Shown here piece after piece: positions 815-63,185 of a stretch of DNA of 64,000 bases (position 1 is its first letter; every line of letters begins with the position of its first letter). Made by a program: the position numbers and the translations under genes. The DNA comes from Rhizophagus irregularis (taxonomy: Eukaryota): assembly GCF_026210795.1 (NCBI RefSeq), contig NC_089429.1, positions 2,728,001 to 2,792,000 of the forward strand, read 5' to 3'. Below the pieces are notes generated by a model that worked only from the letters and a program-made list of their open reading frames with translations, searched no databases and was not told the origin of the DNA.

Positions 815-912
815 TCCGTAGCGATCTTCCTAACATGTGTAACTTCGTTTTAAGCCTATGTTCACTTTATGTAATATTAGTGCATAAAGATGCATAATTT
901 CCTTATATAGTA

Positions 913-1873
913 CAGTCAACTCCCTCTATAGTCACTTCCGTTATAGTCACATTCTACTATATAGTCACACCAGTTGAATGTTCAAAACACTTTATTATTA
1001 AAATCTATCCTATATAGTCACAATCTATCTATAGTCACTAACACACCTATCCTCAAAAATCTTATATTAAAAAGAACCGTTTATAATCACAGTTATATAA
1101 AGAATATATTAAATAACTTGGCATCTAATAATCGTACAAAGATGTACCATAGCTTGTTAGAATCGTCTCACTGAGACGAATCGAATGGTGGTAGTTTTAT
1201 CCTTTTACGATCACTGGCTGATGAGTTATTCAACAAAATGTTAAGCATCGGCATTATTATATTCCTTGATTTACGTTTACTGCGCCATTTAACATTTTGC
1301 TAAATATCTCGGTACCTAGTGATTGTAAAAAGACGATTAATAGCTCGTTGGAATCGCCTCATCAAGACGAATCTAATGGTGGTAAGCTCATCTCTCTATG
1401 ATCAATATTGACGGAGTTACTACTTAAAAACTATTTAATATTTTTTAATTTCGGAAATTGATCTAGTGATTGGATTTCGATGTATTTTATACCATTAGAT
1501 TCGTCGCATCAAGACGAATCGAATGGTAGTAAGATCGTCTCTCTAGGATCAATGTTGGCAGAGTTATTACACAAAAACCATTAATATTTTTTTAATTTCG
1601 GAAATTAATCTAGTGATTGGATTTCGATGTATTTTATACCATTAGAACCGTCTCATCAAGACGAATCGAATGGCGGTAAGATCATCTCTCTACGATTAAT
1701 ATTGGAGGAGTTACGATACAATAAAGTTTTAAGTATAATTTTGGCCAAAATTATGTTAATTTTTGGCCGGAATTATGATATACTAATATAAGAAATTTTT
1801 TATATAGTCACATCTCTTTATAATCACCAAATATGGACTGTTCCAAATGTGTGACTATAAAGAGAGTTGACTG
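913..1873. mobile_element. Tc1/mariner(pogo)-type MITE, 961 bp, copy 1
   Basis: 23-bp TIR CAGTCAACTC(C/T)CT(C/T)TATAGTCAC, TA on both sides, TATAGTCAC subterminal repeats, four internal palindromic cassettes; near-identical inverted copy at 37780-38740. Confidence 0.92.
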
Positions 1874-2108
1874 TATATATGTTACATAAAGTAAACATAG
1901 GCTTAAATCGAAGCTACATATGACAGGAAAATCGTTACAGAGCTAGAATTATGGTATTAGAATACAGTTATAATTTTAGTAAAAATTTTAATTTTGGTCA
2001 CGTGATATTATAACAGCCAATCAGAATTTTGGAATAGTTTTAGCATTTCGGAATTAAGTATTTTTCCTAAATTAATTTTACCATTTCAGTTTCGGCAAAT
2101 GGTAAAAT

Positions 2109-3226: not shown

Positions 3227-3688
3227 CACAGGTCGAAAAATAAAAAATCAGGCATCAATCAGTCACTAATCAGGCAGTTTGCTAACTTTTGATCCAGTAA
3301 TCAAAAAAGAATAAAATATAGCTCATTGGAATCGTCTCAACAAGAAGAATCTAATGGTAGTAAAATTACATCTCTAGAATTAATAGTTAATAAAAAATTA
3401 AATAAAATATAAATGATACATTTTTATTTTTATATTTTACTTAATTCTTATCAAGTATTAATTCTAGAAATGCAATTTTACTACCATTAGATTCGTTTTG
3501 TTGAAACAATTCCAATGAGCTATATTTCATCTTTTTTTGATTATTGAATCAAAAGTTAGAAAACTGCCTAATTGGTGACGATATTTGGTGAAAATGCTAA
3601 TTAGTCACCAATCAGTCACCAATCAGTTATCTGATTGGTGACTGATTTGTGACTGATTGATACCTGATTTTTCACTTTTCGACCTGTG
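3227..3688. mobile_element. CACTA/CMC-type MITE, almost fully palindromic
   Basis: ~40-bp TIR CACAGGTCGAAAA..TCAGTCAC; 3-bp TSD CTT on both sides. Confidence 0.85.
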
Positions 3689-36994: not shown

Positions 36995-37779
36995 AATGTA
37001 ATTTGATATTTTTGGAAGAAGACATCCATTCAAGAAAGGGAGCGATATTTGATCATAGGTTCCTCATTAAGAATTTTCTTGGTTATCTGACATCTAGCCT
37101 AGAATTTGCGATTTTTCTTAAATTCTCAAGCATGTTTTAGTTTTATAATTCTTTCTAAGAATTCAGCATGTCCTGGTAAGGAAGTGAAAAATATTTTTGA
37201 TGTAACAATATCTAATGCTAATAACAATCAAGTATCTTCACTCATAGAGGCAATTAGAACCCATCATCTAAATCAATTTTAAAATACAGGTTGGCTTTAT
37301 ATAAGATCAGCTTCATATCTGATAGCATCGTAATTCACAACTTAAGTAACAATAAATACTTCAAAGTAGATGGCACAATAAGAATGGAACTGCAAGACAC
37401 AATTTTTAGTCATTTTTCCATTCAGCCTCAATGTATCTATTCCAGTAAATGTTATCGTGTACGCTTCTACTAAAATGGTACCAGAAGTATTAAGCATCAT
37501 ATAACAGTAATATATTCGCAAATTTTTTTTGTATTAGTTGTTTCTCCAACAATGATTTATTTTTTAAATAAAACATATATTATGTTCTTTGTCATAAATC
37601 TCAATAAATGTTATAATCTAGGGGTAGATAAAATAAATAGGGGCTAACTTAAATGTTACACAGGCTAAGCTTTTATAAATTGGTTATATAACCGAATTTT
37701 TATATTAAAATTTCACTTTTTTTTATTTTTTTGATACGTACGTATAGAAAAGCAGTCAATTTCAGAAGTCAAAGTTGCA

Positions 37780-38740
37780 CAGTCAACTCTCTTTATAGTC
37801 ACACATTTGGGACAGTCCATATTTGGTGATTATAAAGAGATGTGACTATATAAAAAATTTCTTATATTAGTATATCATAATTCCGGCCAAAAATTAACAT
37901 AATTTTAGCTAAAATTATACTCAAAACTTTATTGTATCGTAACTCCGCCAATATTAATCGTAGAGAGATGATCTTACCGCCATTCGATTCGTCTTGATGA
38001 GACGGTTCTAATGGTATAAAATACATTGAAATCCAATCACTAGATTAATTTTCAAAATTAAAAAAATATTAATGGTTTTTGTGTAATAACTCTGCCAATA
38101 TTGATCCTAGAGAGACAATCTTACTACCATTCAATTCGTCTTAATGCGACGAATCTAATGGTATAAAATAAATTGAAATCCAATCACTAGATCAATTTCC
38201 GAAATTAAAAAATATTAAATGGTTTTTAAGTAGTAACTCCGTCGATATTGATCACAGAGAGATGAGCTTACCACCATTCGATTCGTCTTGATGAGGCGAT
38301 TCCAACGAGCTATTAATCGTCTTTTTACAATCACTAGGTACCGAGAAATTTAGCAAAATGTTAAATGGCGCAGTAAACGTAAATCAAGAAATATAATAAT
38401 ACCGATGCTTAACATTTTGTTGAATAACTCATCAGCCAGTGATCGCAAAAGGATAAAACTACCACCATTCGATTCATCTCAGTGAGATGATTCTAACAAG
38501 CTATGATACATCTTTGTACAATTATTAAATGCCAAGTTATTTAATATATTCTTTATATAACTGTGATTATAAACGGTTCTTTTTAATATAAGATTTTTGA
38601 GGATAGGTGTGATAGTGACTATAGATAGATTGTGACTATATAGGATAGTTTTTAATAATAAAGTGTTTTGAACATTCAACTGGTGTGACTATATAGTAGA
38701 ATATAACTATAACGGGAGTGACTATAGAGGGAGTTGACTG
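37780..38740. mobile_element. Tc1/mariner(pogo)-type MITE, 961 bp, copy 2 (inverted)
   Basis: Reverse complement of 913-1873 with the same length; flanks CA/TA. Confidence 0.92.
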
Positions 38741-39088
38741 TATATACTAGCTCTATATAAGCAATTAAAATTAGATCACAAAGTTAAAATTATATTCTTT
38801 TTTTTTTGACATTTCAAGAAGTATATATTAAATGTTTTATGTAAAATGTTTTAAATTAGCTTTTTCTTTTTATTATTTTCAAATGTGTAATAAAATTTTA
38901 TATGTTTTTAAGGTATTTAAACAGCTGATCCAAAATTTAAACAATATAGAAAAAAATATTTTCATTACTGATTTATCATTTTTTTTTTTCACAGATAATA
39001 TTGATTATCAGAAGATTTTTTACTTTGAACATAAAGTAATACCATATTCATCCAAAAATAAACAACAACTTTTGTATGTAATGCAAGC

Positions 39089-39602: not shown

Positions 39603-40407
39603 AAATTACGTCATAGTCATATGATTTTATAGTAAACAATAATATTAAAATTCAAAGTTAACGAACTTCGCATCCAGTAATTCGATTTTTATGATCTTTA
39701 CACAGTTAGATTTAGCTCATTGAGAGAATCCCAATGATATGTATTTCATATTTGTAGCATCAATATTGACAGAGTTATTCACATTTAAAATTGGTATTAA
39801 ATAGTCTTATAATTTTTATAGTAAACAATAATTTTAAAATTTAAAGTTAACGATCTCCGCATCCAGTAATTCGATTTTTATGATCTTTACATAGTTAGAT
39901 TCAGCTCATTGAGAGAATCCCAATGATATGTATTTCATATTTGTAGCATCAATATTGACAGAGTTATTCACATTTAAAATTGGTATTAAATAGTCTTATA
40001 ATTTTTATAGTAAACAATAATTTTAAAATTTAAAGTTAACGATCTCCGCATCCAGTGAATCGATTTTTATGATCTTTACGCGGTTGGATTCAGCTCATCG
40101 AGAGGATTCCAATGATATATATTTCATATTTGTAGCATTAATATTGACGGAGTTATTTACATTTAAAATTTGGTATTAAATAGTCTTATAATTTTTATAG
40201 TAAACAATAATTTTAAAATTCAAAGTTAACGATCTTAGCATCCAGTGAATCGATTTTTATGATCTTTACGCGGTTGGATTCAGCTCATAGAGAGGATTCC
40301 AATGATATGTATTTCATATCTGTAGCATCAATATTGACAGAGTTATTTACGTTTAAAATTTTATATTAAATTATAATTATAAAAATCACATGACTATAAT
40401 GTAATTT
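39603..40407. repeat. Four tandem 189-190 bp units bounded by ~27-bp inverted repeats
   Basis: CATCCAGT recurs at 39671, 39860, 40049 and 40239; AAATTACGTCATAGTCATATGATTTT pairs with AAAATCACATGACTATAATGTAATTT. Confidence 0.85.
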
Positions 40408-41088: not shown

Positions 41089-42331
41089 AGATCTATATTT
41101 TTTTATTTATTTGTTTTTTTTTAAAAAAAGTATACATTATTTATCTTTAATTTTTTTTATTACAGTAATATAAATCAAGCACCTACACCAACAAATACGC
41201 AAATTTCAATATCTCAAGAGAATCCATCATTTTTATCCAACTACTTGAAGTAGCCTATTGAGAAGAAGTTTCGTTACATTTTACTACAGCCACCACTTCA
41301 AAATATAAATCAGAGTAAGTTAATTTTACCTTTATTTATTTTCTTTATCTCCTGCATCAATATGTCGCATTTGAATTTCTCATGGAGTATTATTTATTAA
41401 ATAATACAACTGACGGTTTTCAAATTTCATTATATCATGTACTACAGGTTTTTTTTAATTTTGCCACCCATAGTTGTTCTGCCAAAAAATAATCTAACCT
41501 AAAATTAAAATAATTAAATGTATAAATAATAATAATAGATAATTAGCCAATATAAACAGCTTAAAAATAAATAATAAATAAATAAATAAATGTAACGTAC
41601 CTGATTATAGTTTTTTTTTCAATACTTGAAGTAGAAAAAAGTTAATTTTTATCCTTTAGATTTTGCAAAAATTCTGGGATGTACTGGAAAAAAATATGCA
41701 TATAAGGAGTAACATCCTCTTTTCTATATAAACCTGGTATTTGTGATAATGAATTTAATTGTTCTTGACTTGGCCAATAAAATAATTTAATCCATTGCTT
41801 TGCTTTATTTTCAAAATTATCAATTTCAGAATTCGTTAGGTTAGGACTTTGTAAAACTAAGTATAATTCATAAAAATTATGCTATAGTTTTTGAATATCT
41901 TCACCGCATTAGGAAAATATTGCAGAACCTTTTTCTTGTCAGGTCCCATTAATGAAGTCCAATTCTACTTGCCACTATTTGATCTTGATTTAAAAAATTC
42001 AAAATGAACTTTAAATGATTTCATGGTTTGTTCAATTTGATTTTTAATTTCTCGTTCAAATTCCCTTTTTTTAAACAAATCATTGAAAAAGCATTCCATT
42101 AATACATCAGAAATACGTAATAATAGATGTAACAGGATCCTGAACAATATATATAAAGGTAGGTTTTGAGTTTAACCAACATATAAAAATTTTTCCTATG
42201 TAAAATTTATTATTGCTTATTTGATAACATAATTTTTAAATAGTCAGATATAATTATGCGTAGCAGAGTATTAAATTATTAATAGTCAGATATATATTTG
42301 CATAGCAGGATAGATTTTTTTAATATATATA

Positions 42332-42831
42332 TATTGTGCCTCAGATCAATTCTTGCCTCAGATTGAAGCTCACGCACCTCACATTGAGATTGTCACCTGA
42401 CACACCTCATTTGAATCATTCAATAAAGTCTGTTATAAAGTAAACTTTTTTTCTCATTAATTAAACCACTTTTTGTAACATAAACAAACTTGTGCACCAT
42501 AATGAGTTACATGTTTCCTGAAATATTTATGTAAATCCGATTTATATTGAAGTTTATATTTATGTTTTATCTGAAAAATAATTAAATTTTAAGTCATTTT
42601 TCAAATGAAAAGATTTAATAAGTATGATTCCAATTAATCTGAAATTATAGGATTGTATACTTAAAATAATGATAAATAAGTTTACTTAGTACTTAAAAAT
42701 ACATTAAAATTGGAAATTTTGATGTTTAATTATAGCTCATTTTTATTAGCAATTGAGGTACGTCAGATGACAATCTCAATGTGAGATGCGTAAACTTCAA
42801 TCTGAGGCAAGAATCAATCTGAGGCACAACA
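42332..42831. mobile_element. Ginger-like (TGT..ACA) MITE in a TA tract
   Basis: ~80-bp TIR T(A/G)TTGTGCCTCAGAT..; TATA flanks. Confidence 0.75.
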
Positions 42832-43477
42832 TATATATAATATAATATCTGATATATATTTACATTTTTCACATTAAAAAAAATTAATAAAATATATAAA
42901 CAAAGTTATAAATATATTTGTGTAAAAAAAAGTTACTATTTTTAATACAAAGAATAAGTTAATTGTATACGTAATATAGGAATCATTTTGAGACGTAATT
43001 GTGTAATGTGTTTTTGATAAAACAAATACGTGTCCACGTAACAGTAAAATTATAAATCATATACGTGTTCATGTAACAATAAAAAAATATATATTGAAAA
43101 TGAAAGCAATAGGTGGATGGGAAGGGAAAAATAAGTGGTTTTCTGTTTTTTTATAATTTTACACTATAATTTTTGTAATAATCAATAAAAGTTATTTCAT
43201 TTTTACTTAGAAAATTTTTTAAAAATATTTTTTTTAACAAATTTCACAGTAAATTTTAAAAATAAAAATTCCACGTATTGGTGGCATTACAAAAAACATG
43301 AATAAATCCATAAATATCTATTCAATCATAATAAATATTTATATATATAAGTAGATTCGAACCTGCTGAACAACTTTACTTAAGACAGTTTCAGATGTTT
43401 CCTTTGACTAAAGTGCTTAAATTACGCTCTGAAGTTACAGAACAAATATACGAAATATTAATAAAAAACATTTATAA

Positions 43478-43686: not shown

Positions 43687-44716
43687 TAAGTTGTAATATT
43701 ACAAAAAAATAATAATAGCTTTATCTATACATTATTTCAAAAATTTTTGTTTTTTTAGTTTTTTTTATATACATATTTTATAAAAAAAATTATATATAAA
43801 TATATATATGTTATAAAATAAATTGCTTAGCAGTGTAAAAAATTTATGGGTTAGATAAAAGTTTGCTTAGCAGATATGAAAAATATTTGCTTATTGACCT
43901 TAGTAAATTTTGAATTTTTAACTGACCTATATATATATTGTTTGGGGTCCTGATGTAACTCATCTGGAATGTAATTTTCTTGTTTAATAATAGGAAATAG
44001 CAATGGTTTTTTTTGACCTGTGAAAATTTTAAGATTAATTCGAATTTTTACATAATTATTTTTATAAATTTACACTTACACTTTGTGTTTTTATAAATTG
44101 GCCAGTATAAATCCATGTTCTAACGAACACTTGCCTCATAATCGCAAAATAGACAAAAATATTTTGAATTCAGTGCACCTAATCCCATTATATTGTACAT
44201 AAACTTCCAGTCAGCTGAAAAAAAAAACTCAATTAGCCAGTGCATACCGCTAATGGAAATCCCATTTTCTTGAAGATCTTGAAGTTGATATTTAAATAGA
44301 TTTCCAACTTTGGCTAATGTTTCGTTTCTTTCTTTACTTATATATAAACAAAAACTGATTTTTTATTATTTAGTAAATGTTCCAAAAAGAATTTATAAAT
44401 TATATTACTTATACTAATGATCAGGTTTTAACACATTGCCTTTTTCATTAATAAACACACAGTCATCATAACATGATTCTGTTTACAACCCACATTTCTT
44501 CCATCTCCACCAAGTTTCAAATTAATTGTATTTCCTGGTTAAAGAATTGGTGGGTTTGAACTATTCCAAATAAGAATAAGTATTTGAAGGAGATTTCTAA
44601 TAGATCAATAAACACCATTACTAATTTCTTGTTCATCAACTATAATTTCATCAGGATTACCTTGATGTTCTTCATCATCAAATATAAGTTGTTGATTAAA
44701 TTCTTTATCAGGATTA

Positions 44717-44916
44717 TACAGGTCAAAATGCTAAAAATTAGCAAAAAAAATGGCGCGAAAAGCAGTGGCTATTCTTGGCTATTTATGACTATTTATGGCT
44801 GTTTTTGGCTATTTGCGAATTAACTTATACTATTTGCAAATAGTTTATACAAATTTGCAAATAGTTTATGCAATTTGCGCCATTTTTTTTGCCTGTTTTT
44901 GGTCATTTGACGTGTG
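44717..44916. mobile_element. CACTA/CMC-type MITE inserted in the transposase
   Basis: Imperfect ~45-bp TIR (T/C)ACA(G/C)GTCAAA..AAAAATGGCGC; 3-bp TSD TTA; terminus resembles that of 3227-3688. Confidence 0.75.
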
Positions 44917-45198
44917 TTAATTGTTCCAATAGGTATTTGTTCATTAATCAATTTTGTAATCTTTATTCTCCTTTGTGCAACTTGATATTCACGTATTAAT
45001 CGTGCTTCTACAGAAGCAAGCCTTCGATATCCATCACGGCCTAATAAAGCTTCATCACATGCGCGTACATAGGCATTTAATTTTATATAATTTAATGATA
45101 AGTTGTATTTTATATTAATAATATGTTCTTCATATTCCAATTCCATATTACGTAAGTGAATTGGTTCTCTAAATTCTGAAAACATCCGATGTTATAAA

Positions 45199-46569
45199 CA
45201 CTAGTTGAAATAGTCCAAATCAAATAGAAATCGATCATCTGATTTTAATCTGATTTATAACTCAATTTTGACCAATTTTTTTAAAAAGGCAATATTCCAT
45301 TTGGATTCCGAGTGGTTGCCACTCAGATATAATTCAGAATAAGAAATCAGATATAAATCGGATATAAATTAACAAATACTACTAAATTCGACACTATTAA
45401 TTAGACATAAATCAACTAAATTTATTATATAAATCAGATATAAATCAGATATAATTCAATTACAATTCAATTTATAAATTCAGATATACTATAAAATATA
45501 TTATAATACGTAAAACTAAAAAAATAGAGTAAATAAATTCATATATGCTATAAAATATAATATAATATAATACACAAAACTAAAAAAAGAGTAAAATTAA
45601 TTCAGATATGTAATAAAACATACTATAATACGCAAAACTAAAAAAAAGAATAAATTAGTAATAAAATAGAATTCTGAAATTCCAACCATTAATCTTCTTG
45701 CATAAAACTTTCTGATTTATCCGCTTTATCTTCCAAAATTGCATCTAAATCTTCATCATCAATATTTAAATCGTCTGTATATTCTGTATCATATACCATA
45801 TCTGGTTGATCAACATATGACCAATCGGAAGCATCATCCAGTGGTACTTTATCATAGCATTATATCTTGTCATTATAGTTCTGAGATCACAATTGCTGCG
45901 CCGTTTGTCCCACTCTTAAATGTTTATCGAGAACATTTCTTAATAAAAGTCTCAATTAAAATGTAAAAATAAATAAAATCGGAAAATGTAAAAATAAGTA
46001 AAATCAGAATTAGTAAAAATTTATAGCAAAATAAATTATCAAGATAAAATAAGTAATCTCTTCTGAGCGTTACGATAGATCATAAACATTAATGACTGAT
46101 TTTGAACCTTCATCTTTAGTTTCACTCACTTCTGGTGAATGATATGCACAATTTGCCAGAATTTTTAACAGATCCCGTTTTCCATAACTCGTAATTTGGC
46201 TATCCTTTTATTAAAGAGATATTTTGCAGCCTTTATCCTTCGCAATTTTTTCTGATTGATAAATTTAAAATGAATTAATATGGATTATTAATTTGCCGCT
46301 GGATTACATTACATACATCATTTAATCTATTATTGGCATGAACTTGTCAATTGTCCATGCTTTCTTTGCCGGATATCCTCAAACTTAACTTAGATCGTTG
46401 AGATTTATGTAGGCTACTTAACCACCTTGTTACCTGATTAATGGATGGTTGATAATTCAGGAATTAATTTGAGTCGAATTTTAATGTTTTTTGCACTGTT
46501 AAACATTTCATTGTAGTTTAAGTTATATTTCTCATTAAGTGTTTTTAAGATTGATTTCATTTCAATCTA
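45199..46569 (-). mobile_element. Left end of an older CACTA element with accessory-gene remnant
   Basis: Starts CACTAG; many AAATCAGATAT subterminal repeats; minus-strand SPEVSETKDEG..VYDLS*RSEE|LLRNVLD remnant truncated at 46569. Confidence 0.6.
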
Positions 46570-47341: not shown

Positions 47342-47838
47342 GACCCATTTAATTTAATGTACTTATTAAAGAGGGGAAAAAGTTATATTAGTAATTTAGT
47401 TATTTAATTTTAAATCCAATACAATAAAGTTTGATGCATACCTGTTTAATAAACATAATTTTTAAGTAAAAAATACTTATACATGTCTACAATTAACACC
47501 TCGACACGGACCTATTTAATTTAATGTACTTGTTAAAGAGGGGAAAAAGTTATATTAGTAATTTAGTTATTTAATTTTAAATCCAATACAATAAAGTTTG
47601 ATGCATACCTGTTTAATAAACATAATTTTTAAGTAAAAAATACTTATACACGTCTACAATTAACACCTCGACACGGACCTATTTAATTTAATGTACTTGT
47701 TAAAGAGGGGAAAAAGGTATATTAGTAATTTAATTATTTAATTTTAAATCCAATACAATAAAGTTTGATGCATACCTGTTAATAAACATAAAAAAATACT
47801 TATACACGTCTACATTCTACAGTTAACACCTGACACGG
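47342..47838. repeat. Three tandem ~167-bp units
   Basis: AAAGAGGGGAAAAA at 47368, 47535 and 47702. Confidence 0.9.
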
Positions 47839-48368
47839 CTACATTAAAATAGAAAAAATAAAAGAATCAGTTAATATTAATTTCGACAGTAACTAACTAT
47901 TGGATAATTGATATTGTGGTGGAAAATTTATGTATTCATACCGTCTCTCCCTGTAATATAGTCAGCTTCTCTTCTAAGTAGGATTAATTAAAACTTTCTA
48001 ATTCCAGAAATTCAAGGTTTTGTATCTTGTATCCTTTATTCCTGGTAAAATATTTTTCGTCAGTAAGTTTATAAATAATATAGACTTATTACCAGAATAA
48101 CATAGACTTATTACCAATATTTTATCAGAAAAGAGAAAAGTAAAATAAAAAAACAGTGAAATGTTTTGCTTATAATAGGTATTTCATCTATTTCATCATC
48201 GCTTATCCGTGTTTAACTATTTTTAGATACAAATAAAGTTAATGGGATAATCTTATTCATGTTTAGCTATTTTTAGAAATTAATCAATATACAACAAATA
48301 TTCTTAATTATCGGGTTTTTTACTAGAACATAAAAAGTTTTATTATAAGTGCGAACTGCTGCAAGAAA

Positions 48369-51300
48369 TCAATGCCCAATATTTTCCCAATTAGAGTCAT
48401 CAAATGCATTTTCTTTATCAATTATATAATATCTATTATCTATTTTAGCAAAACCTATACAATGATCTAAACATCTTACATCGATAAATTCTTTTGATCT
48501 GAATTGAGTAAAATGTTTACATCCATATTCATCTTCTACAATTTTTGATGTTAATTGTACATAGGCTAACATGTAAACCTGATGGTTGAATTCATGGACA
48601 AGATAATAATTTACGATTCCATATATATCTACAATAACGAGTTGAGGAGGCGCATTGGGTCCGTGGGCAAGTTTATCTATTGTGCGTCTTATCTAAAAAT
48701 ATTTATAAATAAAATATAAAATCAATATTAAAATTATATCAAAAAAATAAAAAAATAGCAATGATAGTAATCAAAGATTATAAATTTTACCTGAAGCACA
48801 ATAATTATTTCTTGCAATTTTATTATTTCTTTTTATACAACAGCTACTAATATATTGTCCATCTGAAGTTCTTAATCTTCCATATCTTACACCATAATTA
48901 TTAACCTCCTAAAAAACGAAATTATTTTGTTATTGTAATGATGAATTTAAAATTAAATAAAATAAAGCTTTATATTACCATTTCTAAATCATTACGATTT
49001 ATATTGCTTGATCCTTCGTAAAATTTAATCAGATGTTTGTGTTCTTGGCTTGCAGAGAATATTGAGTAGAAGGGGAATAAAATTCTTCTTCATACCCTTC
49101 AGTACTAAAGACCCGTTCCTTACTCCATTGTTTTAGCGGGTTTTCTTTGAAAATAGCTTTTGAGATAGAAAAAAATGGTAACATATAAAATTGCTGTAAC
49201 AAAGTAAGCATATTTGCAAGGTTGCTATATGGCTTGATCTTTGATTTAATGAGTGGTTGTAATATACCACACACCCTTTCCATAGGAAACTGCCAATGGG
49301 TTCAACTAGGGCCACAATATTTAATAGAATTTGCTACATGTAAGAGGTAATGGAAACTTATCTTACATGCTGCTAAACGTCGGGCTATTGTTCGATAATA
49401 CTCTCTAAAATAATTAATCATTATTTTAATTATTATACAATTATAAATTATAAGACAGAAATCATTACCTTTCATAATAATCTGAAAATTTTTTAAGCAA
49501 AATTTGTACATCATCAATTTGTTCTTCAGATATTTCAGGTTCTAAACAAAGCTTTACAGACTTCACAAAGTTTGCCCATCCTTGAAGATGCCTATTATGT
49601 AACGAAAAGTAAAATTTACTTTTTGATTAGTTAAAAAAATTTAAAAATGTATTAATTTAACTTTTTACTTTTTATTAAAATACCTTTTATCCAGATACAT
49701 CTTTAGTAATGGTAATGAAAATAAAATTATCCAATTTCTCCATTCTACCGCTTTGTAACCATTATGATATTTAAATATGTCACGTGGAGGGCGACCAATT
49801 TCAATAGGCATATTTTTTTTTACTTTTTCCATTTGTATGCCAATACTTTCCCACTGTGATTTTGATAACTCATAATCACTAGACAATAATAGATTGTTAT
49901 AAAAAAATTTTCCACTCCAATGTGCATTGACGTGCGCCATTCTCGAAGAATAAATGCATTATATCTGTTGGGAAAGACCATGGAAATAATAATGTTTGTA
50001 ATTTTAACAATTCACTGGACCCTTTAATTCCTGTATAGTAAAGTAATAATAATTAATACAGAGATGTAAGTATACTTTTACTTTTTTTCTCAAGAAAATC
50101 ATACCTGTTTCTCTGATCATTTCATCTTTTCGATCTTTATTCGTTTCTTCTTCAATTAATTTTCCCATATTGATCGTGTCATCATGATTTCTTATATTGC
50201 AAAAAGCAGATGATGGATAGTATATGTGTTTATTTGATGGGTGACAAGTCCCTTTTATCATACAAAAACGACAACCTTTATACGAATTGTGTCCAGAGAG
50301 GTTTAAGCTTTTGCTTAACGCTGGAACATCCCCCGTCCATGTTAATAAATGTGCGCGTAAAATAAAAGGTTCATTTGTTCGTCCATCTATACATTGAACT
50401 CCTTCTATAATATTTAACAAAATAAAATTTCAATTATAGAAAAAATACATTTTTATTAGATATTAAAATTAGCTATACCTTCAAGTTCTTGTAATTCTTT
50501 TATAAGAGGGCATAAAAAAGAATTAAAATTCTTTGGCGAACGGGGACCTGGTATTATCATTGTTACCAGTAGATTTTCTTTTTTTACACGAATAGAAGGA
50601 TGAAGATTATTATTTATTAATAAGATGACCCAACAATCATCGGTTCGTTGTTCAAAGATCTGATATCCATCACATGTCCCGGATAGTGCAATATCCCGTT
50701 CATCTTTAAAAAAACCCCTTTGTAATAAATCCTTATATAACCTATTGAAAGAAACATATTTTAATGGCCTTTTTTTTAAAAAAAAAATTTACTTTAGTAA
50801 TTAAATTATACTCACAATCCATCAAAGATATCAGCATATATTTCCTCCTCTCCTTTGTTTTGGGAATAATTACTTCTATATTGTAATTCTTCGGCTCTTT
50901 CTTTATTCTTGTATTGAATTATTAGGCGTTCTTTTACCGAAAAAAAAAATGTTGTATTTACAGGTTTGCCATTATCATCAAATCTGTTTTCACCACAAAT
51001 AGGGCAACTGGCTAAATTTTCATATGATGATGTAAATGCAATACAACTGTTTTTGCAAGTATCGTATCCATGAGGTTCAAAAGGAACTATGCTATTGATT
51101 TTTTTTTCAACTTATAGATTGCTAAATTAGAATTAACATTATCAAGTATTTTGTTGAATGCGATGTCAGATATTGAATGGAGTACTTTTGTATGTAAAAG
51201 ACGTAAACCTTGAATCAATTCATCTAAAATAAATAAATATTATTATTCTATCAAAATTAAAATCAATAAACATAGTATTAACTGTACTATCGTTTATGTT

Positions 51301-51972
51301 TGTCATTTCAGATTCCTCAAATTCTTTATCATCATCTGTTAATTCATCATTCTCTTCAGAAATATATGCACTTGTTTGCGAACAATCACTTTCAGTTTCT
51401 ATGTCTCCTTTATCATCTTCTTCATCACAATCTTTATTATCAAGACTTTGCCTATCACTATTCTTATCGTAATCTTCGTTATTAGGAATTGGATTACCAT
51501 TATTATAATCTTCGTTGTCAAGAAATGGCTCATCGCTATCATCATCATCATAATCTTCTGATCTGCAATTAACATGATTTTGATGATTATTAAAGTATTA
51601 TTATAACAATAATGTTTAATAAAAGTAAAATTTACTTTTTTTTATAAAACAATTAATTAATTACCTTTTTGGTATGTCTTTTAAAATTACAGGAACATGA
51701 TCGTTATTTGAAATATTGCTTTCTGAACTTGTATCTGATTTATCCGATTCATCGTCTTCGAACTTTTTTTTTTCAGCTGCGTTACAACTTGAAATTGATT
51801 CACTATCGCTTTTTGTTTCTGATCCGCTTTCTGCTTCAGATTCATTAATTTTTTCAATATTTGCTTTTTCTCTTTTTTGATGTTTTTTAAAAGTTTTTCT
51901 AGTAGACAACCACTTTCCGTTACCATCTTTAGAATTTATTTTACAAATACGACAAGAACAAAGAAATGGCAT
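48369..51972 (-). pseudogene. CACTA/EnSpm (Tnp2, Transposase_21-type) transposase, multi-exon, disrupted
   Basis: YDTCKNSCIAF..CPICGENRF, YADIFDG, GTCDGYQIF, IIPGPRSPKNFNSFL, TGDVPALSKSL..GHNSYKGCRFC, DIMH, GYKAVEW, HYLLH, WQFPMER; in-frame TGA at ~49302 and frameshifts. Confidence 0.9.
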
Positions 51973-52145
51973 TTTGAAACGTGATAGAATTTATGTAATG
52001 ATATATTTTTATAAACAATCACATAGTTTGTATTACATGATTGTATTAAATTTACGCATTAAAGTTAGAGGTTGTGTTACAAGATTGTGTATCGTTATTA
52101 GAGATGATATAATAATGACAATATTCGTAATAATTATACTGATTG

Positions 52146-52310
52146 TATTATGAGCAATGGTTCACACAAAGCCATACTAATTGTTCAAAGCCTATTATGA
52201 GCAACGGTTCATATAAAAGCCATAATAATTGTTCAAAGCCTATTATGAGCAACGGTTCATATAAAGCCATACTAATTGTATTAAGAGATTGTGTTATGAG
52301 CAACGCTCGT
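52146..52310. repeat. 47-48 bp tandem repeat (3 copies + partial) between the divergent TE genes
   Basis: TATTATGAGCAA(C/T)GGTTCA.. at 52146, 52193 and 52241. Confidence 0.88.
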
Positions 52311-52884: not shown

Positions 52885-53830
52885 ATGGAACAAACACCCG
52901 AAACTGAGGTATAAAAGTAAAAATATAAAAATATTTTTAATAATCTATAATCAAAAATTCTTACTTTATTACTATATTATAGCTCAGTCATATATAAGCC
53001 TACGTCTAAATATAATTTACAAGATGCGTTAGGATTAAAAAATGAAAAGCAACGCTGGCTTGCTTATTTGGTAACTATTTATTAATTTTTAATAAAAGAT
53101 AAAAATTGTTTTTTAATAGTAAATTTTTGTAATAGGAGATAATGCGAGAATGTCTCTACGAAAAGAATGTAGATTTTACCGCCGATTATAGGAGTCAAAA
53201 GCATACAATAACTGCACAAATAGTTCGTTCTGTAAATATTAAATTTTAATTTTCGTCATTTCTTTTTTTTTTGAAGTATACTAAAAATTATTATATTATA
53301 GTTTAAAAAAAAGGCTCCTGACTTCCTATAACCGCAGCCGATTGGGCTGTAAAGGAGATGCTTGTTAGTACTATACAAAATAAACGTAAGTTAATAATAA
53401 CTTTATTTATACCTAGTTGGTTTATAGTAGAAATTAATTATTTCATTTTATTTATAATAGGCTATTATCTGAAAAAAAAAAAAATGAATTAGAAAATAAT
53501 TTAAGAGTTCCACCACAAAATTCTCCAGCATTACAGGACCGTCCTCCACCATCTCCTCAAGCACAACAAGATCCTCCTTCTCCAGTTGAGCCTTCTGATG
53601 AACAAGTTCAGATCTGGCCTCCAGTTGAGCCTTCTGATGAACAAGTTCAGATCCGGCCTCCAGAACCACGTACTGATGAACAAGTTCAGGTCCGGCCTCC
53701 AGAACCACGTACTAATGAAAAAGTTCAAAGTGATCCTCCAAAAAGGGTCCGGAAACAACATGTAAATGACAAAGAAAATCAAAATAATGTCCCCAAAAAA
53801 AGAGGAAGAAAAGCAAAATCAAGTAAATAA
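52885..53830 (+). pseudogene. TE accessory (TnpA-like) gene divergent from the transposase; 39-bp repeats in the last exon
   Basis: Exons read KYNLQDALGL..WLAYL|EIMRECL..VDFTADYRSQK..|FKKKAPDF/ITAADWAVKEML..NKR; 4x39-bp PPVEPSDEQVQI repeats (53580-53735); ends KKRGRKAKSSK*; frameshifts. Confidence 0.65.
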
Positions 53831-54218: not shown

Positions 54219-54726
54219 ATGAAGATGGTTCACAAAAGAAGTCAAAATAAATTACAAGAACGAAAAAATAAATCCTTTTCGAATAATAAAAGAAAAAGAG
54301 ATAAGGTGAGTGAACACTTGAGAACCGCCTAGAGTGGTTACTAGGTTCGCCCGTAGTTTTTCAGATCTTTTAGATAGCTTTTTTTATTTTTTTTCTTCTA
54401 TTTTTTATTTTTTTATTTTTTTATTTTTTTTTGGAGGGTTTAATAAAAGATGGAGTATATAATTGTATTCGGTTGTTATCTGGTTTCTAATTAAAAAATT
54501 GGTTTAGGTCAACTCTTTAAACGAAACAATTGAAAATAAAGATAAAGGTAATTATAAATTATTATTGTATAAATAATATATATCAATTACTAACATTTAT
54601 TTAGAAATTACACAATTAAAACGGCAAAAAACATTTGCCGTTGAATTATATCAACAAAAGTTAAACCAAATAATAGAAATAGAAAATAAATTAGAAAATA
54701 ATTGCAAATGTATAGAAAATGAATAA
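54219..54726 (+). CDS. Small basic + coiled-coil (bZIP-like) protein, 3 exons, ~82 aa
   Basis: Exons 54219-54305, 54508-54547, 54605-54726 splice in frame: MKMVHKRSQNKLQERKNKSFSNNKRKRDKVNSLNETIENKDKEITQLKRQKTFAVELYQQKLNQIIEIENKLENNCKCIENE*. Confidence 0.6.
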
Positions 54727-55331
54727 TTTTGTTAATAAATTATATGTTATTATAATTCAAGAACTACGTGAAAAATTTTTTTTTTTGATGGGAGAAAAAA
54801 ATGATATGTTCCCATATGAAATAAAAATGATATATCTTCCATACAAAACAAGTTTTGTGAGAAAAAAAATCATTTTTTCACGAGAAAAGGAGTTTGTCAA
54901 ACAAGATCTGCTACTTTTACGTAATTACTAATAGCTCATTTATTTAATATTTGTATAATTTATAAAATAAAATACGAATACTGACAAAAAGTAAATTTTA
55001 CTTTCAGTTAACAACCAGATCGGCATACTGTACTATTCCGATTAAAGTTTCTAGCACGTTGTTTGTAATTAATTTTGTACTTTTCTTTGTCCCCATTTTT
55101 CCCATTTCACAAAAAATTCATCAGATCTTATCGTTCTCGTGTATTTGCTAAAATCCTTCTTTTTGAAACATGTATTTTCTCACGCATTTTTTCCTATATA
55201 TACAATCCAATTACGTAAAAATTATTTTAAGTTTTCGTAACGTCTAAAACTGTGGTCTGCTTGGAAGGTTTTAGCCTGCCGAGATAGTTTTAATGATAGG
55301 AATAACTTTTAATTTATATAATAGATTCACG

Positions 55332-55968
55332 ATGGTCGGACACCGCTCTCAACGTTCGAAGGAAAAACGAATTGCTCGCATTAAGAGCAAGAGAGGAAGT
55401 GCTCGTCAGGTAGTTGCAGGTGGGTTCCCTCTACATGATATCCTGGGGGCTTAGATTGTTCTAAAGAGGGCTTGTGGACGTTTGTCCTGAAATGATCCTG
55501 TGGACGTCTTTGGATTGTTCTAAAGGTGACTTGTGGACGTCTGTTCTAAAACGAATCTGTGGACGTCTAAGCGGTATCGGTGTCAACCTAAGATGGAGAA
55601 ACCCGCTTGGTCGAGCTGCGCATAGATCAAGTTAACCAATTTTTTTTCCCCCATTAGATTACATAAAGGAATTGGAAAAAAAGGTGCAGGAACTTCAAGA
55701 GCAAGTGAATGGTATGGATCGGGCTTACAGAGATGACCAGAGAGAATTGCTGCGGGTACATAATGAATTAAAAAAGGCAGAGAGGAAGTAAGTAATCAAC
55801 TTTTTTGCTAATAAGTTTCCTTAAATTAATATAATTTTTCACTTTTATTTTATTAGGATTACTTGTTTAGAAGGGGAGGAAAGGGATGAAGAAGGCCAAG
55901 AAAGAAGACAAAGAAGGGGACAGGGACGAGGGAAAAGGGGAAACGTTGTTGTAAGTTGTAAATATTGA
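55332..55968 (+). CDS. Small bZIP-like protein, 3 exons, ~109 aa
   Basis: Exons 55332-55419, 55658-55787, 55857-55968 splice in frame: MVGHRSQRSKEKRIARIKSKRGSARQVVADYIKELEKKVQELQEQVNGMDRAYRDDQRELLRVHNELKKAERKITCLEGEE..RGQGRGKRG..*. Confidence 0.65.
55451..55568. repeat. Intronic ~59-bp duplication with four TGTGGACGT motifs
   Basis: Directly visible. Confidence 0.75.
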
Positions 55969-57179
55969 CGTGCTTGGTAAACTAGTTTTAAGAATGAAGG
56001 ATAAAATCTAGCGCAAAGAGTAGTGACAATACAAAGTGCAATAAAATTACAGGTATTGCGAATAAAATGACTAAAGAGCCAAAAGACAGCGAATAAAATG
56101 ACTAAAAAGCCAAAAGACAGAATGAAAAAAAGAAAGATATAAATGAATGTAAACGAAAATGATGCAGACCTAACCTGACGTTATACATTATATGTTATAC
56201 TGTACGAACCCTGTTGTGATATTAAAGTCAATCGGCAAATATATATACAGTATATATATTTCAAATAAATCTTAATAAAAAAATCAACGTGTAACTGAAT
56301 GATAAATTTTCTTTACCTGAAGATTTTTTTAGGTCTCCCGGTTCGTAAGACGAAAACGTCTAACGTAATGATTCAATTTATGATCGCATTGCACATTGCG
56401 CAAGTTTAATAACCCACCTATTATTTTTTTTTATTTATTTATTATATATCTAATAATTATTTTCACACGAGAAAAAAAAATTTTTTGTCAATCCTAACTG
56501 TTACATTCTGCTACCATCAAAATTGTCATTTTTTTTTTAGTGAGAAAATTTTTTATTTGCGGAAAAAAAAATACCGAATGGGAGAAATGTGGATGTTGCA
56601 CAGAGTTTAATGTGTCATGCTAAGGTGGTGGAACATCATTATTATAACACAATTAAATCTTACGCGTGCACTTCCATTTTTGGTTCATCAAATCCACTTT
56701 GCCATTAAAGTATAAATACACCGCTTCCATTAAAAGATGTAAAGATGTAATTCAATATCGAATTACATATTACGATTAATATGTCCAAACAAAAAAAAAT
56801 CGAATTACATATTACGATTAATATGTCGCAGCAAAAAAGCCATGAAATAGAATTACATATTACGATTAATAAATTTATCAAAAAAAAAATTAAAAATTCA
56901 TTTTTTGGTTTTTCTTTCTCTAATTCTCTTCTTTTTTTAAAAAAATACTGAATTCTTTCTACCACCTTTATCGCAATTTTAAAATATGGACTCTTTAAGA
57001 TCATTAAAAATACCAATTATCCAGCTGCAAAAAAAGTATTTTACCTTATAATTTTGATTCTGGAGAACAACCCGAAACAGAACAGCCTGCAACAGGTTTG
57101 CAAAGTTAATTATTTATTTTGTATCTAATTCTAATAAATCAATTAATATCTACTTCAATTTTGAATCAATATTTCATAA

Positions 57180-59025
57180 TTGGATATATTTAAAGATAAA
57201 CAAGAACCATTGGTCCTAATAATTTCTCCAAGTGTTACAAGTGACGATGGTTCTTTTGGTTCTCCTAGTGTCGGGGTTGGGGTTTCTGAAACTTTTAGTA
57301 ATAATGGCACTAAAAAACCAAATATAAATAATGAATTTGACAATGATGATAGGAATGAAGAACAGGATCATGGTCGAAGGTTAGTTTTAAAATTAATATG
57401 ATTTTATATTTAATATATGTGCGAACACGGTATAACAGTAATATTAAAGTTTATTAAATAGTTATTAATTAACACAATTTTATTTACAAAAAGTAAATTC
57501 CTTTTTTCTTATTTATATTTTATAGATGATCAAGTAAAAGTATTGGATACCAATACTGATGATGCTAACGAAGATTTTTGTAAGTTTCAATTTATATCTT
57601 ATAATCTTAGTAATTTAGAGCAAACAGTAATATTTAAATTTATGTTTATTATTTTCTATTTATTGTAATGTATAAGGTTCAACCCAAAAAAATGATAAAA
57701 AAGAACGAAAATTGGTAAATTTTCGCATTTTTTTTCTTACCTTGTTGATTAACAAAAGAGATACTTACTTTTTGTTATTTTAAATTATATTAGATACCTC
57801 GATGCGTAAAAGGGCTAAACCGGGTATTGTATAATTCACAGAAAGTAAACTCTGAAACTTGAATTTGAAATAATATATATATTTTTCTTTAGACGAAAAA
57901 ATATTATTGGCCATTAATAAGATCGGAGGTCCCACAATAGATTCGTTATTATATTCATTGAGCAAATTGAAAAATACCGGAGTTAAAAGTGTAACAATGA
58001 ACTTGGTTAATAATAATATACGATTTATGGATTCCACAGGAACATTAGTGATAAAGCCAAATCACGTTAACTCCGATGATATAACAATTAATGCCAGTTT
58101 TCCTCATTATGATTATAATCAAGCCTCGGATCTCAGCTTCGAGGCAAATATTATCGAATTAAAGAAATTCAAAGAATTGGATATGGCAAGTATAAGATTG
58201 GCGGAAGATTTGCATAAGCTGCTAGGTTATATTGGTAAATTGCCAAATAATCCACCTATACGTGATAGGTCAATCTTCAGTAAAAAAGAAGAGTATAGAG
58301 AAGCCCTCATTAGTCATTTGGAAAAGATTAATTCAACACAAGATTTTCAATCTTTTCGTGGTACTCAACGTATTAATTTGATTTCTGATGACAATCAAAA
58401 AAGTTGCAGTTCTTTTAAAATTTTACCAATTCGTGTGCAAGAAAAGACTTCATCACTTACTGAATTATCTGATGAATTCAAGAAGATTGCAAAAGATTTA
58501 TCGGAGGATATATTTTTATCCGTAATGGGAGAAGCAAATGAGCAAGGAAATAAAGAAATGGCCAGACGTAAGGAACTAAGGTTTCATGTCGGGTTTTTTA
58601 AGTCATACATACAATTACAGGCTTTTTGTGAGATAAACTTAAACAGAAAACAATCAGAGACGACAAAATCTCAAGCAAAAATATTAATTGCTCAATTTTA
58701 CCCCTTAATTTCTTTACCGAATTTGGAATTGATGCTTCAGCGAGCACCACGTATATACAGGTTACTAGAAGTAGCCAATTTTGATTGGCGACTTTTAGAT
58801 TCTTTCGAAGAATTAAGCGCATGTTTTTTTAAGAGTGGAGTAAAGACGGCAATTAACTTTGAAATATGGATTAATTTGGTCTGTACAGGCAAGCTGATTA
58901 GTTATGACGAAGAATTAAAAACTCAAGAAAGAAATAGGGAAAACAAGAGGATTAAAATTGAAATTATTAAGGAATATTTTGATATTTCAGGGGTTAATTT
59001 TGACGAGATGGTTGGTAATGAGTAG
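57180..59025 (+). CDS. Multi-exon gene of unknown function; 5' end uncertain
   Basis: Microexons near 57527, 57678 and 57794, and a 1.13-kb open terminal exon containing QRAPRIYRLL..RLLDSFEELSA. Confidence 0.65.
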
Positions 59026-60689: not shown

Positions 60690-61919
60690 ATGGATATCTT
60701 GCCAGAAATCGACTTAAGTGAGAACAGAATTACGAATAATACAATTGACAAACTAATCGAAACGCTTAAAACTACCAAGTTCAAGGTTAACCTTATTATA
60801 CAAATTAAGATATATTTTAAATATAAATCTAAAGTTTTTATTTGAATTAGAAATTGAACTCGAGAGTGTCTTCACTAAAAATAACAAACAAGAAACCTTT
60901 GAAATTTTGAGAAAAATATGCGAAGTAATTAAAGAAAGCACAAATTTGGAAGAACTGATAATTAGTAAAAATGCACTAGGAAAAAGCGGTGCAAAGGCGT
61001 TAAAAGTTTTTTTAACTAATAATGTTAATTTAAAGCACTTGATAATCGACGACGCGGGGGTTAGGCGAAGGAGGTACAGTTATATTAGAATCGTTATTGA
61101 ATTCGAGAAGGAAAACTTCTTATTTAGAAACATTTTCAATAAAAGAAAATGTTTTAGGAAAACAGTGTTCCAAACTGCTTTCTATGGTTCTACATAAACA
61201 TAAAATTACACTAACAAAAGTAATTTTGTCTCGAAACAGCTTTTATAACTCAGATCTTTGTCGAATAATAGAGTCTTTAAGTTTGTGTAAGAAGTTACAA
61301 ATTATTAATCTCGAAGATAATTTTTTCACTAAAAAAACATCGAAAATGCTTAGTCGATCTTTGGCTAACTGGCCGGATTTAAAACAACTAATAATTAATG
61401 ATTGTTTGATATGTAAAAAAGGTGTTATATATATTTTAGAGGCATTATTAAAGGGTACCAATAAAAATATTGAATATCTGGGGTTTCAATATTGTAGTAT
61501 TGATGAGAATGGGTTCTATACTTTGGCAAGTATAATTAAAAAAAGTCTAATGTTAAAAGTGGTGGAAATCAATGGGAATTATTCGATTAAAAAAAAATGT
61601 ATGTCAAAGCTAAATTTGGTCTCTAAAAAAAATGGAACCTTGATAAATGGATTTGATGATTTAATTAACGAAGATGATGAGGGAGAAGAAAAGGAGGGAA
61701 AGGAAAAGGAGGGAAAGGAAAAGGAACTGGACGATAATGAGGTAGAGGAAATTCATAATGACATGAAAGGGAAAGGTCGATGATGGAAAGGAGGGAAAGG
61801 AGGAGGAGGGGCTGGACGTAGAGGAAGAGGAAGGAGACTATGATGAAAAGGAGGGAAAGGAGGAGGAGGGGTTGGACGTAGAGGAAGAGGAAGGAGGCCA
61901 TGATAGAAAGGAGGAGTGA
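60690..61919 (+). pseudogene. Divergent RanGAP (Rna1)-like LRR gene with acidic tail; three single-base frameshifts
   Basis: IDLSENRI|LESVFTKN..ISKNALG..DAGLGEGG..NLEDNFFT..LANWPDLKQLIINDCLI..FQYCSI..EINGNY..FDDL + D/E tail; frameshifts near 60858, 61056-61060 (G5) and ~61766. Confidence 0.8.
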
Positions 61920-62194
61920 CTGATGATGAAATCATGAGTTTTATAATAATAATAAGATAGTGCCGTAGTACAGTTGCGATTTTATCGTAAAATTAAAATA
62001 TTTTGTATATATTGTGCCAGCTGGCAACTTAATAAACATCCCATGACTTTAAATTTTAGCTGAAAAGTTAATTGAACGAATAATTTACTTACATTAATTA
62101 TTCTACGTAAAAATCATTCATAATTTTTTATTTATTTTTTTTTTACATTTTATAATATAAAATTATAAATTCAGTCTAATGTGATAAATCGGAT

Positions 62195-63185
62195 ACTATT
62201 ATTAACCAAATTCATTGCTACACTTTTAACTCCAGTTTTTTTCAATTTGCCCAAAGAATAGAATAATGAATCTATAATAGGATCTCCAATATTACTAATA
62301 GCCAATAAACTTTCTTTGTCTAAAGAAAAAAATATATATATATTACTTCAGATTCAAGTTCACAAGTTTTGCTTTCTGTTAATTATACAATACCCGGTTT
62401 AGTCACTTTTTTACATATCGAAGTATTGCCTAATATAATTTAAAATACCAAAAAGTAAATATTACTTTTGTTAATCAACAAAGTAGAAAAAAAATACGAA
62501 ATTTTACCGATTTTCACTCTTTTTTTATCATTTTTTAGGGTTGAGCCTTATATAGAAACAATAAACATAAATTTAGTATTATTGTTTGTTCTAATTATTA
62601 AGATTATAAGACATAATTTGAAACGTACAAAAATCTTCGTTAGTATTATTGGTATCCGATATTTCTAATATTTCTACTTGATCATCTATAAATAAGTAAA
62701 GAAGAATTTTACTTTTTGTAAACAACAAAAGAAATGATGAAAAAGAACTACCATCACTTTCCCTAACATGTTTTTTGTTTGAATTTCCTTCGATATCTCG
62801 CGATGCTTATAATATAAATATGAAAATTGGATTAATAACTTTATAATAATTATACATAACAAAATCTCAATATTACTGCTATACCGTGTTCGCCTATATA
62901 TTAAATATAAAATCATAGTAATTTAAAACTAACCTTCAGAAAGACTTTACCAACCGTGCTATTAAGATTAGAAAGATCGATATTTTTAAAGATAATCCAG
63001 AACCATTTGTCCTAATAATTCCTCCTAGTATTACTGGTGGTGATGGTCCTCCTGGTTCTCCCGGTGGCATTGTTTCTGAAACTTTTAGTAATAATGCACT
63101 AATAAAAAACAAAATAAAAATAATGAAAATAATGAACTCTAACTTGGCATCGAAATCTATAATTATGAAATATTGATTCAAAAAA
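62195..63185 (-). pseudogene. Inverted, truncated paralog of the 57.2-58.0 kb gene segment
   Basis: 62195-62938 is a diverged reverse complement of ~57377-58020 including introns; 63160-63183 matches 57159-57182. Confidence 0.8.

What the first reader, a model, noticed from the sequence alone, without database searches (positions are those of the whole stretch)
54219..55968. Two tandem bZIP-like microgenes invisible to the ORF track
Seen: both 3-exon models splice in frame with canonical sites and no stops, while the neighbouring transposase is broken. Both have a 29-codon basic first exon (MVHKRSQ.. / MVGHRSQ..) followed by a heptad coiled coil, and the second has the typical bZIP junction YIKELEKKV. 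The canonical N-x7-R basic motif is not evident. Inference: minimal TE-encoded zipper proteins that may dimerise with host bZIPs as dominant negatives, or bind element DNA.
Basis: partly seen in the sequence, partly recalled or inferred. Interest (0 to 1): 0.7.

Follow-up and report, generated by a model that had tools for sequence, protein, structure and literature searches.

The report
Transposon-borne coiled-coil microgenes, not bZIPs
In the root-symbiotic fungus Rhizophagus irregularis, two tiny spliced genes sit in a repeated gene block beside a cut-and-paste transposase; they encode a basic tail plus a coiled coil, lack the DNA-reading signature of bZIP factors, and likely serve the transposon as helper proteins.

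Summary
Both three-exon models are real. Gene B's two junctions are read in RNA (260 and 297 of 1,243 laid reads in one polyA run), though the reads carry other copies' alleles. Neither is a bZIP by motif: no N-x7-R/K-x9-L, no Asn in the zipper core, no Pfam bZIP row shown. B only looks bZIP-like: a predicted parallel homodimer (0.45 vs best control 0.00) and a weak Atlas resemblance. A and B are not clear paralogues. They lie in a conserved block, CACTA transposase (-) then genes C, A, B, D (+); gene C alone has 16 loci in one assembly. The 'intact microgenes beside a broken transposase' argument is weak: C and D are frameshifted here too, mostly in A-runs, and some A and B copies elsewhere are frameshifted. 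Best reading: orphan accessory genes of a young multi-gene CACTA-type element. Termini were not found; function is untested.

The parts
48369..51972 (-). CACTA/EnSpm-type transposase gene, multi-exon, frameshifted in this window (-1 in an A-run at 51099; -5 near 49930)
   Evidence: Pfam Transposase_21 on exons and on the 814-aa relative P0104, E 9.7e-22, with weak DUF4218; exon map and breaks; ends inferred from the ORF list
52885..53830 (+). Gene C: five exons, about 210-220 aa; conserved three-helix N-terminal domain, Pro-rich 39-nt repeats, basic C-terminus; divergent from the transposase; two -1 frameshifts in A-runs here
   Evidence: no Pfam, PDB or fold assignment
54219..54305 (+). Gene A exon 1 (29 codons, basic)
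   Evidence: product identical to P0138
54508..54547 (+). Gene A exon 2 (start of heptad region)
   Evidence: same junctions in public models
54605..54726 (+). Gene A exon 3 to stop (heptad region)
   Evidence: not tested by reads
55332..55419 (+). Gene B first coding exon (29 codons plus 1 nt, basic); RNA from other copies also splices a 5' UTR exon onto the acceptor at 55324
   Evidence: 66 loose ends and 8 joints at 55322 in X19
55658..55787 (+). Gene B exon 2, zipper (a: I32 V39 V46 Y53 L60 L67; d: L35 L42 M49 D56 V63 A70)
55857..55968 (+). Gene B exon 3 to stop; other copies carry a 98-nt insert at 55943 that ends the protein earlier
55750..56319 (-). Spliced antisense transcript over the 3' half of B (minus-strand GT..AG introns 55750-56169 and 56102-56174); longest ATG frame tried 61 aa
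   Evidence: CT..AC joints (13 X19 reads, 3 X22 reads; one X6 contig) and loose ends at 56213; splice sites; direction inferred from splice sites
56986..59025 (+). Gene D: multi-exon, long last exon, no Pfam family; +1 frameshift in an A-run at 57034 in this window, absent from L001
47342..47842 (.). Three 167-nt tandem repeats beyond the transposase 3' end; possible subterminal repeats (inference)

Best explanation
A and B are two small spliced genes in a repeated block (transposase on the minus strand; genes C, A, B, D on the plus strand) that is likely one young CACTA/EnSpm-type DNA transposon of Rhizophagus irregularis, and their products, a basic tail plus a coiled coil predicted for B to form a parallel homodimer, likely act as accessory proteins for the element itself rather than as bZIP factors. 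Shown: gene structure, splicing of B-family RNA, multi-copy block order, transposase family, missing bZIP motif. Predicted: B homodimer over residues 28-81. Inferred: the basic tails give nuclear import and non-specific or element-specific nucleic-acid binding, and the coiled coils oligomerise, so that A and B would work with the helical protein C and the transposase as TnpA-like helpers (transpososome assembly or control of the element's own expression). B is made as its own mRNA, not as a domain of a C-A-B-D fusion.
For: B junctions in two raw-read runs and one contig set. Exact A on 25 contigs; a diverged homologue (53% over 85 columns) is annotated in R. diaphanus. Of 33 listed GenBank accessions of A- or B-containing models, 17 lie within four accession numbers of a listed gene-C accession or are fused to C; the other 16 had no partner in lists that are truncated; C, A, B are consecutive in CAB5202648-50. 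Of 25 listed transposase accessions, 2 are adjacent to a C accession (GBC53493/4, PKC54948/7) and 3 isoforms of one locus share a 60,591-nt contig length with a C model; a transposase fragment and a C-A-B model share a 14,372-nt contig length. Gene C has 16 distinct OCT59_ locus tags. L001 repeats the B-D link at 92-99.6% identity. B(1-83) homodimer: score 0.45, best of 3 controls 0.00, runs agree in 100% of contacts, pLDDT at least 81; the mark was reached by 21 of 30 microbial pairs and 0 of 23 single chains, by 17 of 29 eukaryotic pairs but only 1 of 7 without an older solved relative, so likeness to solved coiled coils may explain the pass. Separate accessory genes in EN/SPM families and predicted coiled-coil oligomerisation of TE proteins are described in PMC13547354 (passages); recent CMC expansion and CMC-EnSpm expression in this fungus in PMC8647823 (passages).
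Against: No termini or target-site duplication found: 5 candidate CA..TG pairs against 1-7 in 20 shuffles, so that the block is one element rests on gene order. Transposase linkage rests on few loci and on accession order or contig length, not on aligned DNA. Copies are near-identical, so frame conservation is not proof of selection; some are frameshifted (P0139, P0142, P0145; an extra A in 7 of 406 X19 and 3 of 43 X22 reads). No B homologue outside R. irregularis was named among 15 hits in 1.84 billion representatives (12 R. irregularis, 1 R. diaphanus for A, 1 unnamed, 1 not looked up). No translation, localisation, DNA-binding or interaction data. A and B show no similarity to a known TnpA.
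Confidence: 0.55

Rival explanations
1. A and B are transcribed passengers of the element: young or captured ORFs that are spliced but have no selected protein function.
For: Orphans confined to Rhizophagus; copies near-identical, some frameshifted; B is overlapped by spliced antisense RNA; TE transcription is widespread in this fungus (PMC8647823, passages).
Against: Efficient constitutive-looking splicing into one frame (260 reads for the in-frame first junction against 5 for an out-of-frame donor); a regular seven-heptad core and a confident dimer model; A's frame is kept in R. diaphanus at 53% identity.
Confidence: 0.25
2. B (perhaps A) is a degenerate bZIP that heterodimerises with host bZIP factors as a dominant negative, or binds a non-canonical site.
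For: Basic exon directly joined to a Leu-at-d zipper with Arg ten residues before the first Leu; first named Atlas cluster is bZIP_2 (70% of members, score 0.90) and 6 of the ten best family hits share its family or clan; parallel dimer model.
Against: Ile at the invariant-Asn site, no R-x-R/K-K after the Arg, no Asn at any 'a' position; Arg/Lys at -10 arises in 34% of exon shuffles, and N-x7-R/K in 79% of A exon-1 shuffles, and A's Asn17 is Asp in R. diaphanus. Only 131 of 256 Atlas features shared, where 9 in 10 true members share 170 or more. No bZIP among the 25 best of 34 Pfam rows for B (to E 0.27) or all 6 for A, nor among 9 and 3 PDB hits at E up to 10.
Confidence: 0.12
3. A and B are exons of one longer gene (C-A-B-D or A-B), as several automatic gene models have it.
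For: Fused public models P0004-P0011, P0016, P0020, P0132.
Against: The fusions disagree with each other; RNA depth falls from about 390 on B exon 1 to about 8 at 55000 and from about 230 to about 45 past the B stop; the loose ends shown lead to a short UTR exon and to the 98-nt insert, not to A or D (39 weaker loose ends were not shown); an in-frame stop lies upstream of B's ATG (sequence).
Confidence: 0.04
4. The block is a host gene cluster amplified by segmental duplication, and the transposase is a bystander.
For: No termini found; only 2 of 25 transposase accessions are directly adjacent to a listed C accession.
Against: Dispersed near-identical copies on many large contigs of one assembly, with the same transposase adjacent in independent annotations; host-type genes of the window (PIG-N, P450, BTB, chromate transporter) lie well outside the block.
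Confidence: 0.04

Closest known systems
Plant En/Spm (CACTA) elements with a separate TnpA accessory gene (Arabidopsis EN/SPM2, 5, 6, 9; PMC13547354, passages; maize TnpA role in PMC1636069, passages)
   Same: Transposase_21 transposase plus non-catalytic accessory gene(s) on separate transcripts; accessory proteins predicted to dimerise; accessory products poorly conserved between lineages.
   Different: Here the transposase is divergent from a run of four plus-strand genes, two of them only 82 and 109 aa; none is detectably similar to TnpA; termini not found.
bZIP transcription factors (Pfam bZIP_1, bZIP_2)
   Same: Basic segment followed by a parallel two-stranded zipper with Leu at d (B).
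   Different: No N-x7-R/K-x9-L, no R-x-R/K-K segment, no core Asn, no HMM match shown.
Zipper proteins with a degenerate basic region that sequester host bZIPs, such as HTLV-1 HBZ or CHOP (recalled, not from a call)
   Same: Small protein, basic region off-consensus, intact zipper, in HBZ's case carried by a mobile element.
   Different: Those keep recognisable bZIP zippers and have shown partners; no partner is shown here and the zipper core lacks Asn.
VANC anti-silencing proteins of Arabidopsis VANDAL elements (PMC13547354, passages)
   Same: Element-encoded, lineage-restricted accessory proteins predicted to self-associate through coiled coils.
   Different: VANCs belong to Mutator-type elements, are larger and have a MAIN-like fold; no similarity was tested or seen here.

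Membership tests
bZIP | Invariant N-x7-R/K-x9-L register from basic region to zipper | tested here: not met
   No match in A, B or the R. diaphanus homologue; B has only R25-x9-L35-x6-L42 with Ile17 at the Asn site (motif definition recalled)
bZIP | Heptad zipper with Leu at d forming a parallel dimer | tested here: met
   B: L35, L42, M49, L77 at d; predicted in-register homodimer 28-81, 0.45 vs control 0.00. A has heptads but polar residues at three d sites and was not folded
bZIP | Pfam bZIP_1/bZIP_2 match | tested here: not met
   None among all 6 rows for A or the best 25 of 34 rows for B, to E 0.27; none
bZIP | Language-model feature likeness to bZIP clusters | tested here: inconclusive
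   Score 0.90, 131 of 256 features, 6 of 10 best family hits; A not searched
bZIP | Sequence-specific DNA binding and dimerisation with bZIP partners | not testable with these tools
   Needs binding assays
CACTA/EnSpm (CMC) element | Transposase_21 transposase with C-x2-C and H-x3-4-H motifs | tested here: met
   Pfam E 9.7e-22 for P0104; C-x2-C and H-x4-H visible in P0104; motifs as in PMC12730594 (passages)
CACTA/EnSpm (CMC) element | CA..TG termini with short inverted repeats and 2-3 nt target duplication | tested here: inconclusive
   5 candidates against 1-7 in shuffles; ends of the block unknown, no genome held
CACTA/EnSpm (CMC) element | Dispersed near-identical copies with fixed gene order | tested here: met
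   Accession order, fused models and L001; by annotation, not by aligned DNA
TnpA-like accessory protein | Binds element repeats and/or the transposase | not tested
   No complex with the transposase or C was folded; no sequence similarity to TnpA families in Pfam scans
BEN domain (for neighbour C) | BEN fold or Pfam PF10523 | tested here: inconclusive
   Atlas 0.75, BEN on 24% of that cluster; no Pfam hit in 21 members; best Z 7.5 to unrelated bundles from a pLDDT 58 model

The most novel reading that the evidence does not exclude
Gene B is a transposon-borne degenerate bZIP: a highly expressed micro-protein with which a fungal CACTA element hijacks or silences host bZIP factors (or counters silencing of itself) in an arbuscular mycorrhizal fungus, within a five-gene element whose accessory function is split over several tiny proteins.
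Probability: 0.12. Interest if true: 0.75.

Novelty: new variant of a known kind. Interest (0 to 1): 0.36.

Why it matters
R. irregularis has many high-copy orphan genes and a large unclassified repeat fraction (PMC8647823, PMC11075540; passages). This locus shows that some of those orphans are the fixed, spliced, transcribed cargo of one young CACTA-type block, which names a concrete set of candidate accessory proteins (C, A, B, D) for a fungal element and warns that fused automatic gene models at such loci are wrong. If B proved to bind host bZIPs it would be a transposon-encoded micro-protein regulator, which seven literature searches did not turn up for this fungus; nothing here shows that.

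Tried and rejected
No whole genome is held for the window, so copy number and ends come from annotation only. The run search listed no holder on record as RNA; this blank is no evidence; raw-read rows were laid instead. X15 covered 5 of 30 bins and gave no DNA control for the junctions. The cassette-exon isoforms of DAOM models (P0002, P0015) gave no joint; intron-1 depth is about a tenth of exon depth. TIR searches were at chance. A-B paralogy: BLASTP E 11, no DNA similarity, different intron phases; left unproven despite the shuffle result. Folds for C: no Foldseek hit at E 0.001, best VIA Z 7.5, no PDB sequence hit. Earlier-findings look-ups were empty. Locus-tag search of papers found 0; supplements were not searched, and curated TE libraries of PMC11075540 and PMC8647823 may already hold this element. 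An A-B heterodimer was not folded.

Full report
Observation. Both models splice as described. Gene A has exons 54219-54305, 54508-54547 and 54605-54726 (82 aa; introns of 202 and 57 nt, phases 0 and 1); gene B has exons 55332-55419, 55658-55787 and 55857-55968 (109 aa; introns of 238 and 69 nt, phases 1 and 2); all four introns are GT..AG. All 11 proteins returned for B's second exon are named Rhizophagus irregularis, which identifies the host fungus. The genes are not new to annotation: A's product equals P0138 letter for letter, a hypothetical protein on 25 contigs, and B residues 1-83 differ from P0018 at two positions.

Expression. Four runs were laid on 55000-56250. In the polyA run X19, 260 of 1,243 laid reads join 55419 to 55658 and 297 join 55787 to 55857; X22 gives 23 and 17 of 138; X6 has a contig across each junction; X15 did not cover the gene. 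An out-of-frame donor ten bases upstream has 5 reads. Depth drops to about 8 at 55000 and to about 45 past the stop, and the loose ends shown point to a short 5' UTR exon and to a 98-nt insert of other copies, not to A or D (39 weaker loose ends not shown), so B is mostly a stand-alone mRNA. The reads differ from the window at three places in essentially all reads (330 of 331, 433 of 433, 353 of 353), so they come from other copies or another strain; expression of this copy is not shown. CT..AC joints with canonical minus-strand sites show a spliced antisense RNA over B's 3' half.

Are they bZIPs? No by motif. Neither A, B nor the R. diaphanus homologue has N-x7-R/K-x9-L (the motif is recalled). 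B has Arg ten residues before its first zipper Leu, but that arises in 34% of shuffles of its basic exon; the Asn site is Ile, the residues after the Arg are not basic, and no 'a' position holds Asn. A's N-x7-R/K matches are out of register, occur in 79% of shuffles, and Asn17 is Asp in R. diaphanus. Pfam shows no bZIP family among all 6 rows for A or the best 25 of 34 for B, and PDB sequence searches list none. B therefore works like a basic tail on a zipper, without being a family member. A and B are not clear paralogues: different intron phases, no DNA similarity, BLASTP E 11, though they share their first residues and beat 1,998 of 2,000 local shuffles.

Context. A Transposase_21 gene runs on the minus strand at about 48369-51972. 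On the plus strand follow gene C (52885-53830), A, B and gene D (56986-59025). This order recurs. Of 33 listed accessions of A- or B-containing models, 17 lie within four numbers of a listed C accession or are fused with C, including consecutive C, A, B at CAB5202648-50; 16 had no partner in truncated lists. Of 25 listed transposase accessions, 2 are adjacent to C and 3 isoforms of one locus share a 60,591-nt contig length with C. C carries 16 distinct OCT59_ locus tags, and B-type DAOM models are listed under several RIR_jg tags. L001 repeats the B-D interval. Among 1.84 billion representatives only 15 proteins hit an A+B query: 12 R. irregularis, 1 R. diaphanus, 1 unnamed, 1 not looked up. 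Termini were not found. C has a conserved three-helix domain with no assigned fold and only a weak BEN lead.

The broken-transposase argument. Against database relatives the window has five net frameshifts: transposase -1 in an A-run and -5 near 49930, C twice -1 in A-runs, D +1 in an A-run; L001 lacks the D change. A and B hold only four runs of 6-7 A/T, against 17 in C and the transposase. The pattern fits homopolymer errors of a noisy assembly or slippage (inference), so short genes staying intact says little. Full-length 813-818 aa transposase models exist at another locus, and some A and B copies are frameshifted (P0139, P0142, P0145; 7 of 406 X19 reads).

Mechanism. Most likely (0.55) A and B are accessory genes of a young CACTA-type element: basic tails for nuclear import and nucleic-acid contact, coiled coils for self-association, working with C and the transposase much as TnpA serves En/Spm. 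The gene block and B's splicing are shown, the dimer is predicted, the role is inferred. Rivals: transcribed passengers (0.25), dominant-negative degenerate bZIP (0.12), exons of a longer gene (0.04), host duplication (0.04).

Literature. I saw passages only (term look-ups) of PMC11075540, PMC12730594, PMC13547354, PMC8647823 and PMC1636069; no supplements. They establish CMC/EnSpm elements as recent and expressed in this fungus, CA..TG termini for the clade, and separate, fast-evolving, oligomerising accessory genes in EN/SPM elements. Seven searches gave no listing that describes these genes; curated TE libraries in unseen supplements may contain the element.

Verdict. Real genes, correctly modelled; TE linkage supported by annotation; bZIP label not met; regulatory role untested. 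New variant of a known kind, interest 0.36.

Noticed in passing
window 55750-56319 (-): Spliced antisense RNA overlapping gene B's 3' half, two minus-strand GT..AG introns, no long ATG frame in the forms tried; could feed RNA silencing of B (inference).
   Followed up: partly
window 52885-53830 (+): Gene C: conserved roughly 95-aa three-helix domain also in R. clarus, nearest Atlas clusters unnamed Basidiomycota proteins (0.95), weak BEN lead (0.75); a better candidate DNA-binding accessory factor than A or B.
   Followed up: partly
window 55256-55257: Other copies hold 35 more bases here that include the splice donor of B's 5' UTR exon; this copy lacks them.
   Followed up: partly
window 62184-63127: Diverged (about 82%) partial copy of gene D, mostly inverted with an internal segment in direct orientation.
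   Followed up: no
window 47342-47842, 52121-52263, 56754-56885, 45474-45646: Tandem repeats of 167, 48, 42 and about 60 nt in and around the block; candidate binding sites or subterminal repeats.
   Followed up: no
window 906-1874 and 37779-38746: Inverted 969-nt dispersed repeat at 96.6% identity with internal 147-nt repeats; another small mobile element.
   Followed up: no
window 42318-42845 and 3227-3688: MITE-like inverted-repeat elements (96-nt arms at 88%; a long imperfect palindrome).
   Followed up: no
window 39613-40371: About four tandem 190-nt repeats at 89-94% identity.
   Followed up: no
window 60757-61783 (+): Leucine-rich-repeat gene with an acidic tail in two overlapping frames, apparently frameshifted; RanGAP-like by eye (recalled), only a weak LRR_6 hit.
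   Followed up: no
window 44120-45191 (-): Fragments that look like a second, different DNA transposase (C-x2-C motif); not tested beyond a Pfam scan of one ORF with no clear hit.
   Followed up: no
window 5907-35491: Host-type genes: PIG-N, polysaccharide deacetylase, BTB/POZ, arrestin, chromate transporter, cytochrome P450.
   Followed up: no
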